Origin: Vulcanimicrobiota bacterium
GTDB taxonomy: Bacteria; Vulcanimicrobiota; Xenobia; Xenobiales; JADMJV01
Reading direction: 5' to 3'
Assembly: GCA_050486105.1 (NCBI GenBank)
Contig: JBJHCR010000001.1
Span: forward strand, 14,510 to 78,509
DNA length: 64,000 nucleotides
Each line of letters opens with the position of its first letter. The stretch's first letter is position 1. Below, piece after piece: positions 36,562 through 36,584 of the stretch. The notes under the pieces are model-generated. The model did no database searches and had not been told where the DNA came from. It was given only the letters and a program-made list of their open reading frames with translations. The translations under genes were made by a program, and so were the position numbers.

Positions 36562-36584
36562 CATTCCGAATCGATTCCGAATGA
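36562..36584 (+). promoter_or_regulatory. Direct repeat ATTCCGAAT-cg-ATTCCGAAT (11-bp periodicity) in the divergent promoter region between the repeat-protein gene and the Ser/Thr kinase operon
   Basis: gcattccgaatcgattccgaatga is seen here. It matches the site at 29666-29688 in sequence and orientation. Confidence 0.45.

What the first reader, a model, noticed from the sequence alone, without database searches (positions are those of the whole stretch)
36562..36584. Second copy of the 11-bp-spaced ATTCCGAAT direct repeat upstream of the Ser/Thr kinase operon
See the first copy at 29666-29688. Finding the same 20-nt arrangement in both divergent promoter regions of the locus supports a single regulon. 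That regulon would cover the annexin-peptidase gene, its divergent partner, the tandem-repeat small protein and the kinase/FHA-SARP/GspF operon. A single half-site-like attccgaag also sits at the FHA-SARP/gspF junction (~39415).
Basis: seen in the sequence. Interest (0 to 1): 0.7.

Follow-up and report, generated by a model that had tools for sequence, protein, structure and literature searches.

The report
SARP-type activator box, two promoters
The repeated ATTCCGAAT pair is a real, conserved regulatory DNA site, most likely the docking site for the neighbouring kinase-controlled FHA-SARP activator, but it appears to switch on the small gene on the opposite strand, not the kinase operon.

Summary
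ATTCCGAAT-CG-ATTCCGAAT lies at 36563-36582 and GTTCCGAAT-CC-ATTCCGAAT at 29667-29686. These are the only two such sites in the window and are far beyond chance.

Read on the minus strand, both sites have one layout: ATTCGGAAT-NN-ATTCGGAAN, 9 bp, then a -10-like TAnnnT (TATGAT, TACACT), then a minus-strand gene. These genes are the 114-aa tandem-repeat protein and the 374-aa protein. Neither spacer has a -35 element.

The same box with the same 9-bp geometry recurs in about a dozen unrelated Xenobia/Eremiobacterota loci. Some were retrieved through the regulator and some, independently, through the 374-aa target.

The adjacent "FHA-SARP" protein does contain a SARP domain (winged helix plus BTAD; best structural matches AfsR and EmbR). 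The layout matches the AfsR afs box to within 1 bp.

Best reading: a Ser/Thr-kinase/FHA-controlled SARP binds the box as a side-by-side dimer in place of the -35 element and activates the minus-strand genes.

I found no support for control of the kinase operon, and the lone half-site at 39420 looks like chance. The annexin gene is linked only through operon or divergent pairing with the 374-aa gene.

This is a new member of a known kind and of moderate interest.

The parts
36563..36582 (-). Box 2 (the finding). Read on the minus strand it is ATTCGGAAT-CG-ATTCGGAAT, two 9-nt repeats 11 bp apart. The distal repeat is 36574-36582 and the promoter-proximal repeat is 36563-36571. The predicted position is about -41 to -22.
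   Evidence: 38.5 bits; orientation
36548..36553 (-). -10-like hexamer TATGAT, preceded by G at -14 (aGcTATGAT), exactly 9 bp after box 2. The predicted transcription start is near 36541. There is no -35 match: AATCGA sits at the -35 position.
   Evidence: no canonical sigma-70 promoter in the spacer
36161..36505 (-). Target gene 2: a 114-aa protein with the motif P-I-x-C-H-P-D-S-Q-C-P-x-C and a 23-aa tandem duplication (FKMADPEKYPDYKPAENGRIGTP x2). A GGAG Shine-Dalgarno sequence precedes the ATG at 36505.
   Evidence: the L001 homologue (85 aa, 15983-16240) also has a box plus 9 bp plus TAATCT upstream
29667..29686 (-). Box 1. Read on the minus strand it is ATTCGGAAT-GG-ATTCGGAAC.
   Evidence: 37.2 bits
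29652..29657 (-). -10-like hexamer TACACT (cGcTACACT), 9 bp after box 1. The predicted transcription start is near 29645.
   Evidence: no canonical promoter in the spacer
28507..29631 (-). Target gene 1: a 374-aa all-helical protein of unknown function.
   Evidence: homologues at 45% and 37% identity retrieved independently carry the box plus 9 bp plus TAnnnT upstream
38013..39413 (+). Candidate binding protein, 466 aa. Domain order: N-terminal beta-rich domain (1-125), FHA (138-205), OmpR-type winged helix (about 220-335), BTAD (343-453). The last two together form a SARP domain.
   Evidence: Pfam FHA and BTAD; profile match to the EmbR DNA-binding domain, E 3.5e-5, and to AfsR; AlphaFold model with Foldseek top hits AfsR 8hvr (E 2e-9, TMt 0.69) and EmbR 2fez
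36705..37985 (+). Hanks-type Ser/Thr kinase, the first gene of the kinase/FHA-SARP/gspF operon. It is the likely upstream signal for the FHA domain. It has a signal-peptide-like N-terminus, a transmembrane segment, then the kinase domain.
   Evidence: Pkinase 3.9e-45; a kinase is encoded within a few kb of the FHA-SARP gene in 8 of the 9 lineages fetched through the regulator with the look-up of encoding contigs, all but L005
39410..40447 (+). GspF/PilC-type platform protein gene, overlapping the end of the FHA-SARP gene. In other lineages gspF is itself preceded by a box.
   Evidence: T2SSF 2.2e-40; L008 12709, L014 9930, L018 9875
29755..33486 (+). 1243-aa annexin-repeat protein gene, divergent from target gene 1. 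It is a conserved partner of the 374-aa gene. Direct control by box 1 is not shown.

Best explanation
The element is an activator box of the SARP/OmpR direct-repeat type.

Anatomy. It consists of two 11-nt units. The first 8 nt of each (ATTCGGAA) are conserved and the last 3 are free. They lie on the same face of the helix and occupy about -41 to -20 of a promoter that has a -10 element (GnTAnnnT) but no -35 element.

Mechanism (inferred). Two winged-helix domains of the FHA-SARP protein encoded 1.4 kb away (38013-39413) bind side by side, one per repeat. They substitute for -35 recognition and recruit RNA polymerase, as AfsR does at the afs box.

Targets. At 36563-36582 this drives the minus-strand gene for the 114-aa tandem-repeat protein. 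At 29667-29686 it drives the minus-strand 374-aa gene.

Signal input (inferred). Activity is probably set by the adjacent membrane Ser/Thr kinase through the regulator's FHA (phosphothreonine-binding) domain, as in PknH-EmbR and AfsK-AfsR.

Shown here: the sites, their significance, their conserved geometry and orientation, their conservation before homologous targets in unrelated genomes, and the SARP fold of the neighbouring protein.

Inferred: that this protein is the one that binds, that binding activates, where transcription starts, and that phosphorylation controls the regulator.
For: 1. Significance. There are two exact 16-base matches in 64 kb. Across 400,630 nt of non-redundant related loci, the core TCGGAA-N5-TCGGAA has 5 exact hits against 0.05 in shuffles, and 12 against 4.5 with up to 1 mismatch.

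2. Fixed geometry. Of 59 core hits with up to 2 mismatches, 10 have TAnnnT exactly 9 bp after the box. No other offset between 0 and 30 has more than 3. The background TAnnnT frequency is 0.0055, giving P about 1e-12. G at -14 is present in 11 of 15 sites.

3. Support for the -10 assignment. In three lineages the hexamer lies exactly 6 nt before the ATG (L005, L018, L026), which is the leaderless-mRNA geometry.

4. No -35. Neither window spacer contains a canonical sigma-70 promoter.

5. Conservation without DNA homology. Boxes occur in the window, L001 (three), L002/L011, L005, L006, L008, L009, L013, L014, L018, L026-28 and L029-30. Sampled pairs of loci, including the window against L001 and L006, share no blastn-detectable DNA similarity; only L002/L011 (81%) and L019/L020 (identical) do.

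6. Independent test. Loci fetched through homologues of the 374-aa TARGET carry TTTCGGAACGGATTCGGAAT + 9 + TATGGT (L026-28) and CTTTCGAATCGATTCGGAAG + 9 + TACTCT (L029, L030). L027 is from the same MAG as L011 but on a different contig from the regulator.

7. Homologous targets keep the box despite rearrangement. These are the CHPDSQCP small proteins (window, L001), a 'YRxSNSxxxQ' family (L001, L005, L018), a small KFANxPI family (L002, L011, L006) and gspF (L008, L014).

8. The regulator. The profile matches the EmbR DNA-binding domain (E 3.5e-5) and AfsR. The model's residues 220-466 have pLDDT mostly above 85, and the top structural hits are the AfsR SARP domain and EmbR. The presumed recognition-helix stretch RKNLSY..QL is invariant or nearly so across 22 homologues, matching the invariant TCGGAA core. 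The FHA signature residues GR, SR and NG are invariant.

9. Literature geometry. The afs box spans -40 to -19 as two 11-bp repeats whose first 8 bp are contacted. [quoted passage not shown]
Against: - No binding, transcription-start or expression data exist. The organism is an uncultured MAG.
- Assigning the box to this regulator rests on linkage and geometry only. Other OmpR/PhoB-family proteins bind 11-bp direct repeats at -35 too.
- In L002, L011 and L006 the hexamer at +9 is TTCAAT, TTTAAT or TTAGAT, with no A at position 2. In L008 and L009 it is weak (CAAACT, TCCACT, CCATCA).
- Several distant orthologous loci (L007, L010, L012, L020, L021) show no clear box within the DNA fetched.
- About half of the orthologous promoters carry a second, position-locked direct repeat (TTWACA-N5-TTWACA) upstream of the box. 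Its binding protein is unknown, and in principle it could be the SARP site instead.
- The 9-mers in the window are near-palindromes, so action on the plus-strand promoters cannot be excluded.
Confidence: 0.62

Rival explanations
1. The box is the site of a different direct-repeat-binding winged-helix regulator, for example an unlinked OmpR/PhoB-family response regulator acting like PhoB at a pho box. The FHA-SARP would then bind something else, possibly the upstream TTWACA repeats.
For: OmpR/PhoB regulators also use 11-bp direct repeats that replace the -35 element (established knowledge; the resemblance between AfsR and OmpR-family binding is noted in PMC11301090). A second repeat, TTWACA-N5-TTWACA, is locked 28-29 nt upstream of the box in 8 of 17 promoters, so two DNA-binding activities may be involved.
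Against: No response-regulator gene is conserved near the boxes; only L008 has one, about 8 kb away. The FHA-SARP gene is the only conserved DNA-binding gene nearby, and boxes often lie within 50-110 bp of its start (L002, L005, L006, L011, L014, L018). The box, not the TTWACA repeat, occupies the SARP-typical -40 to -20 position. TTWACA repeats also occur without boxes (L008, L011, L012) and are missing at both window sites.
Confidence: 0.2
2. One reading: the box is a shared bidirectional operator that also controls the plus-strand kinase/FHA-SARP/gspF operon and the annexin gene, including autoregulation of the regulator.
For: Both boxes sit in divergent intergenic regions. The window 9-mers are near-palindromic, and the plus-strand reading of box 2 still scores 21.7 bits. 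In L002, L005, L006, L011 and L014 the box lies 47-71 bp upstream of the divergent FHA-SARP gene, so binding could affect its promoter. A TAnnnT occurs 15 bp from the box on the opposite strand in 5 of 18 sites. In L029, L030 and L031 the annexin gene sits directly behind the 374-aa homologue; L029 and L030 have a clear box and L031 a degenerate one.
Against: The conserved core is asymmetric. Orthologues read GATCGGAAC, CATCGGAAC, TTGCGGAAT or CTACGGAAA, which are not palindromes. The tight 9-bp link to a -10 element exists on one strand only. Kinase genes in orthologous loci have no box upstream. At three boxed promoters (L029, L001 15909, L001 8585) the upstream neighbour is on the same strand, so there is no divergent gene at all. 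This reading is not exclusive of the main explanation.
Confidence: 0.25
3. The box is a repressor operator that blocks RNA polymerase at these promoters.
For: It overlaps the core promoter region between -41 and -22.
Against: The promoters have no recognisable -35 element, so they should be weak without help. A strict single-bp phase relative to the -10 element across a dozen lineages is typical of activators that contact polymerase. SARP domains are known only as activators (PMC10936776).
Confidence: 0.08
4. The repeat is a chance similarity or a remnant of a repeated or mobile element with no function.
For: Only 20 bp are shared, and only two copies lie in the window.
Against: Two exact 16-base matches against about 3e-5 expected. 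Flanks are not conserved, so it is not a mobile repeat. The box is conserved with fixed geometry in unrelated loci. There is no Rfam match.
Confidence: 0.01

Closest known systems
AfsR afs box and other SARP boxes of Streptomyces (ActII-ORF4, DnrI and others)
   Same: Two direct repeats with 11-bp periodicity. The first 8 bp of each 11-nt unit are conserved. The box overlaps or replaces the -35 element, spanning about -41 to -20 here against -40 to -19 for afsS. The proximal repeat lies a fixed 7-9 bp from the -10 element. The neighbouring protein has the wHTH+BTAD SARP fold. The core TCGGAA resembles the TCGAG heptamers of small SARPs (from my own knowledge, not tested here).
   Different: The repeat sequence differs. 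The host is an uncultured Xenobia (Vulcanimicrobiota/Eremiobacterota) bacterium, not an actinomycete. The targets are small uncharacterised proteins and gspF next to a type II secretion/type IV pilus-like gene set, not antibiotic clusters. The regulator carries N-terminal beta-rich and FHA domains instead of the NOD/TPR of AfsR.
PknH-EmbR of Mycobacterium tuberculosis (FHA-containing SARP controlled by a Ser/Thr kinase)
   Same: The same three domain types (winged helix, BTAD, FHA) and an adjacent Hanks-type kinase gene. EmbR is the best sequence match to the DNA-binding part and a top structural match. In EmbR, the FHA domain mediates phosphorylation by the kinase (PMC9239209).
   Different: The domain order is permuted: N-terminal domain, FHA, wHTH, BTAD here, against wHTH, BTAD, FHA in EmbR. 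Identity is about 19%.
PhoB pho box and PhoP PHO boxes (OmpR/PhoB response regulators)
   Same: 11-bp direct repeats replacing the -35 element, bound by tandem winged-helix domains that recruit polymerase. Streptomyces PHO boxes are 11-nt direct repeat units (PMC2275107, abstract).
   Different: No receiver-domain regulator is conserved at these loci. The box sequence is unrelated to known pho boxes. The upstream TTWACA repeats, not the box itself, are what resemble PhoP/OmpR sites.

Membership tests
SARP-type activator box (cis-element) | Direct repeats with 11-bp (or 22-bp) periodicity | tested here: met
   Start-to-start spacing is 11 at both window sites and at all orthologous sites.
SARP-type activator box (cis-element) | Proximal repeat a fixed short distance (about 8 bp) from the -10 element, with the box overlapping the -35 position | tested here: met
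   TAnnnT lies exactly 9 bp after the 9-mer, or 7 bp after the 11-nt unit, in 10 sites (P about 1e-12). This is within 1 bp of the AfsR layout. The -10 element and transcription start are predicted, not mapped.
SARP-type activator box (cis-element) | Promoter lacks a functional -35 element of its own | tested here: met
   No canonical sigma-70 promoter in either spacer. The -35 position reads AATCGA at site 2.
SARP-type activator box (cis-element) | A SARP-domain protein (OmpR-type wHTH plus BTAD) encoded in the same locus | tested here: met
   Pfam BTAD; EmbR DNA-binding-domain profile hit at E 3.5e-5; Foldseek AfsR at E 2e-9, TMt 0.69.
SARP-type activator box (cis-element) | The SARP protein binds the repeats and activates transcription | not testable with these tools
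   Needs EMSA or footprinting and in vitro transcription or reporter assays.
EmbR-like FHA-SARP regulators with a cognate Ser/Thr kinase | wHTH, BTAD and FHA domains in one polypeptide | tested here: met
   All three are present, but in a permuted order with an extra N-terminal domain.
EmbR-like FHA-SARP regulators with a cognate Ser/Thr kinase | Same domain order as EmbR (wHTH-BTAD-FHA) | tested here: not met
   FHA at 138-205 precedes the wHTH at about 220-335 and the BTAD at 343-453.
EmbR-like FHA-SARP regulators with a cognate Ser/Thr kinase | Hanks-type kinase genetically linked; FHA domain with intact phosphothreonine-binding residues | tested here: met
   A kinase gene lies next to or near the regulator gene in the window and in L001, L002, L006, L007, L008, L009 and L010, but not in L005. 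GR, SR and NG are invariant in 22 homologues.
EmbR-like FHA-SARP regulators with a cognate Ser/Thr kinase | Phosphorylation by the kinase modulates DNA binding or activation | not testable with these tools
   A biochemical assay is required.
PhoB/OmpR-type pho box | Cognate receiver-domain response regulator (and histidine kinase) associated with the sites | tested here: not met
   No conserved Response_reg gene in the loci; there is a single distant one in L008 only.

The most novel reading that the evidence does not exclude
The boxes mark a previously undescribed signalling circuit in uncultured Xenobia. A membrane Ser/Thr kinase and a permuted FHA-SARP activator switch on a set of small, fast-evolving, repeat-containing proteins together with the GspF platform of a type II secretion/type IV pilus-like machine. 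These proteins could be its cargo or accessory factors. In many lineages the promoters are composite: a second, position-locked PhoP/OmpR-like repeat (TTWACA-N5-TTWACA) lies 28-29 nt upstream. Two winged-helix regulators would then converge on one promoter, reminiscent of the AfsR-PhoP interplay but outside the actinomycetes.
Probability: 0.3. Interest if true: 0.55.

Novelty: new member of a known kind. Interest (0 to 1): 0.42.

Why it matters
SARP regulators have been studied almost only in actinomycetes, as switches for antibiotic gene clusters. [quoted passage not shown] The regulon is coupled to a eukaryote-type kinase through an FHA domain and linked to a secretion/pilus gene set.

It supplies directly testable DNA-protein pairs for EMSA, DAP-seq and heterologous reporters. 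It also provides a weight matrix that can annotate the regulon in all Xenobia MAGs. Finally, it corrects the assignment of which genes in this locus are controlled.

Tried and rejected
- Half-site at the FHA-SARP/gspF junction (39420-39428): no partner repeat at +/-11, it lies in coding sequence and faces the wrong way. One-mismatch 9-mers are at chance frequency. Rejected.
- Extra half-site CATCGGAAT at 36642-36650 on the kinase-facing strand: no partner and no -10 element at the right distance. Not counted.
- Other repeat spacings (10, 12, 21-23 bp) in the window: nothing convincing.
- Canonical promoter and terminator scan of both spacers: none found.
- Rfam scan of 28000-41000: no RNA family.
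- Mobile or repeated-element reading: flanks of the two sites do not align beyond the box and the -10 element.
- Function of the targets: Pfam found nothing significant for the 374-aa or 114-aa proteins. An AlphaFold model of the 374-aa protein (pLDDT 83, all-helical) has no significant PDB match.
- Distant orthologous loci (L007, L010, L012, L020, L021): no clear box in the DNA fetched. L031 has only a degenerate version.
- The 'target' first extracted for L013 turned out to be an antisense ORF inside a kinase gene. What that box drives is unknown.
- The look-up of encoding contigs for the window's own protein (P0001) found nothing.

Full report
**Observation**

The window has ATTCCGAATCGATTCCGAAT at 36563-36582 and GTTCCGAATCCATTCCGAAT at 29667-29686. 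Each is a pair of 9-mers with start-to-start spacing of 11 bp.

The 16-specified-base pattern TTCCGAATNNNTTCCGAAT has exactly two exact matches in 64 kb. Even with up to 3 mismatches, shuffles give only 0.64 matches. The analytic expectation for an exact match is about 3e-5.

Single 9-mers with one mismatch are at chance level: 18 against 12.9 +/- 3.4. The 'half-site' at 39420-39428 is real sequence, but it has no partner, lies in coding DNA and faces the wrong way. I treat it as chance.

**Gene context**

- Site 1 lies in the 123-bp spacer between a minus-strand 374-aa gene (28507-29631) and a plus-strand 1243-aa annexin-repeat gene (29755-33486).
- Site 2 lies between a minus-strand 114-aa gene (36161-36505) and the plus-strand kinase gene (36705-37985). 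The 114-aa gene has a good Shine-Dalgarno sequence and a 69-bp internal tandem duplication.
- The kinase gene is followed by the FHA-BTAD gene (38013-39413) and gspF (39410-40447).
- Between the two sites are three pseudopilin-like genes.

**Anatomy**

Aligning the two spacers on the MINUS strand shows little beyond ATTCGGAAT-n-GATTCGGAA-N7-GCTAnnnT in register. At both sites the box is followed after exactly 9 bp by a -10-like hexamer (TATGAT at 36548-36553; TACACT at 29652-29657). Then comes the minus-strand gene.

The position where a -35 hexamer should be is occupied by the box. No canonical sigma-70 promoter is found in either spacer. With the hexamer at -12 to -7, the two 11-nt units span about -41 to -20.

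**Related loci retrieved through the regulator**

The FHA-BTAD protein has only 22 detectable relatives at 41-60% identity. The named ones come from Eremiobacterota/Vulcanimicrobiota, including Ca. Xenobia MAGs. I fetched their loci.

The core TCGGAA-N5-TCGGAA recurs next to these genes in L001 (three sites), L002/L003/L004/L011, L005, L006, L008, L009 (two), L013, L014 and L018.

- Over 400,630 nt there are 5 exact core hits against 0.05 in dinucleotide shuffles.
- Of 59 hits with up to 2 mismatches, 10 have TAnnnT at exactly +9. No other offset from 0 to 30 has more than 3. The background frequency is 0.0055, giving P about 1e-12.
- G at -14 precedes the hexamer in 11 of 15 sites.
- In L005, L018 and L026 the hexamer is exactly 6 nt from the ATG, the geometry of leaderless mRNAs. 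This independently supports it as a real -10 element.
- Sampled pairs of loci, including the window against L001 and L006, share no DNA-level similarity, so the conservation is selective.
- The conserved core is asymmetric. Orthologues read GATCGGAAC, CATCGGAAC, TTGCGGAAT and similar, so the near-palindromy of the window 9-mers is incidental and the element is directional.

**Independent test through the target**

I searched for homologues of the 374-aa TARGET and fetched their loci.

- L026-28 (45% identity) carry TTTCGGAACGGATTCGGAAT + 9 bp + TATGGT + 6 nt + ATG. L027 belongs to the same MAG as L011 but lies on another contig.
- L029 and L030 (37% identity) carry CTTTCGAATCGATTCGGAAG + 9 bp + TACTCT.
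- L031 (34% identity) has a degenerate version.

**Targets**

Genes downstream of boxes fall into recurring families:

- small proteins with P-I-x-CHPDSQCP-x-C (window 114 aa; L001 85 aa);
- a 'YRxSNSxxxQ' family (L001, L005, L018);
- a small KFANxPI family (L002, L011, L006);
- gspF (L008, L014, probably L018);
- the 374-aa family.

The annexin gene is divergent from the 374-aa gene in the window and L026. In L029-31 it follows the 374-aa homologue on the same strand with a short gap: 8 bp in L029 and L030, 91 bp in L031. It is therefore a functional partner and probably co-regulated there. Kinase genes never have a box upstream in the orthologous loci.

**The likely binding protein**

A profile of the 22 homologues matches the EmbR DNA-binding domain (profile 217-317 against EmbR 7-104, E 3.5e-5) and AfsR.

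The AlphaFold model has mean pLDDT 77, and mostly above 85 for residues 220-466. Its best PDB matches are the AfsR SARP domain in the transcription activation complex (8hvr, E 2e-9, TMt 0.69) and EmbR (2fez). The FHA part matches bacterial FHA domains.

The domain order is N-terminal beta domain, FHA, winged helix, BTAD. The stretch RKNLSY..QL, presumably the recognition helix, and the FHA GR/SR/NG residues are invariant or nearly so. This fits the invariant TCGGAA core.

**Mechanism**

Published SARP work describes:

- direct repeats at 11-bp periodicity;
- the downstream site 8 bp from the -10 element;
- the afs box at -40 to -19 overlapping the -35 element;
- only the first 8 bp of each 11-bp unit contacted;

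In EmbR, the FHA domain mediates phosphorylation by the kinase PknH (PMC9239209). AfsR is likewise a substrate of Ser/Thr kinases, according to reference titles cited.

The present element matches all the DNA-side features to within 1 bp, and the locus supplies both kinase and FHA-SARP. I therefore propose that the kinase signals through the FHA domain to the SARP, that the SARP dimer binds the box, and that this activates the minus-strand promoters. Binding, activation, start sites and phospho-control are inferences.

**Rivals**

- A different winged-helix regulator binds the box (0.2).
- The box also acts on the divergent plus-strand promoters, including autoregulation. This is not exclusive of the main model (0.25).
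- It is a repressor operator (0.08).
- It is chance (0.01).

**A second motif**

In 8 of 17 boxed promoters, a second direct repeat TTWACA-N5-TTWACA starts exactly 28-29 nt upstream of the box. The background is 4.6e-5 per position.

It resembles OmpR/PhoP-type sites (from my own knowledge; Streptomyces PHO units in PMC2275107). It also occurs without boxes (L008, L011, L012).

It is essentially absent at the two window sites. Only a single GTTTAAC lies at 29700-29706. Its binding protein is unknown. It is the main uncertainty about which repeat the SARP reads.

**Verdict**

The element is a new member of the SARP-box kind, in an uncultured non-actinobacterial lineage, with a permuted EmbR-like regulator. 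The controlled genes are the minus-strand ones.

Noticed in passing
L001 8556-8574 and 15881-15899 (+); L002 about 8074-8092 (-); L014 about 9959-9977 (-); L029 5910-5928 (+); window 29700-29706 (single copy only): A second direct repeat, TTWACA-N5-TTWACA (11-bp period), starts exactly 28-29 nt upstream of the ATTCGGAA box in 8 of 17 boxed promoters (background 4.6e-5 per position). It resembles OmpR/PhoP-type sites. It also occurs without a box (L008 20340 and 20404, L012 3379, L011 868) and is essentially absent at both window sites. Its binding protein is unknown.
   Followed up: partly
L005 9904-9945; L018 12097-12138; L026 5960-6003: In three orthologous boxed promoters the -10-like hexamer lies exactly 6 nt before the ATG, implying leaderless mRNAs. 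The window's two targets have leaders with Shine-Dalgarno sequences.
   Followed up: partly
window 36207-36344: A 69-bp tandem duplication (2.0 copies, 97% identical) lies inside the 114-aa gene and encodes FKMADPEKYPDYKPAENGRIGTP twice. An unrelated boxed target in L001 also ends in short tandem peptide repeats (GGITDDRKP...).
   Followed up: partly
window 28507-29631 and 29755-33486; L026-L031: The 374-aa all-helical protein and the roughly 1250-aa annexin-repeat protein form a conserved gene pair. They are divergent in the window and L026-28 and tandem on one strand in L029-31. The 374-aa model has no significant structural match in the PDB.
   Followed up: partly
window 24944-28510 and 42488-45163: Two SecA paralogues flank the locus. 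One is unusually long, at 1188 aa, with about 200 extra N-terminal residues and a split DEAD domain. The other is a standard 891-aa SecA with the SEC-C zinc motif.
   Followed up: no
window 33567-36140: Three consecutive genes (538, 134 and 196 aa) have N-terminal hydrophobic, prepilin-like segments and no Pfam match. The same trio (537, 131 and 190 aa) lies next to a box in L001 (13274-15817).
   Followed up: no
window 36642-36650 (+): A lone CATCGGAAT half-site faces the kinase gene, 55 bp upstream of its GTG. It has no partner repeat and no -10 element at the expected distance, so it is probably chance.
   Followed up: yes
L013 15278-15297 (-): A perfect-core box with TACATT at +9 points towards the 3' end of a convergent kinase gene. 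Only a 38-codon ORF lies downstream, so it may drive a very small gene or a non-coding RNA. The record is labelled Selenomonadaceae, which is odd for this gene family and may reflect a binning or labelling error.
   Followed up: partly
L002 12637-19473; L003 8450-14856: A CRISPR-Cas gene set (Cas4-Cas1 fusion, Cas8b, Cas3-like helicase) lies a few kb downstream of the FHA-SARP/gspF genes in one lineage.
   Followed up: no
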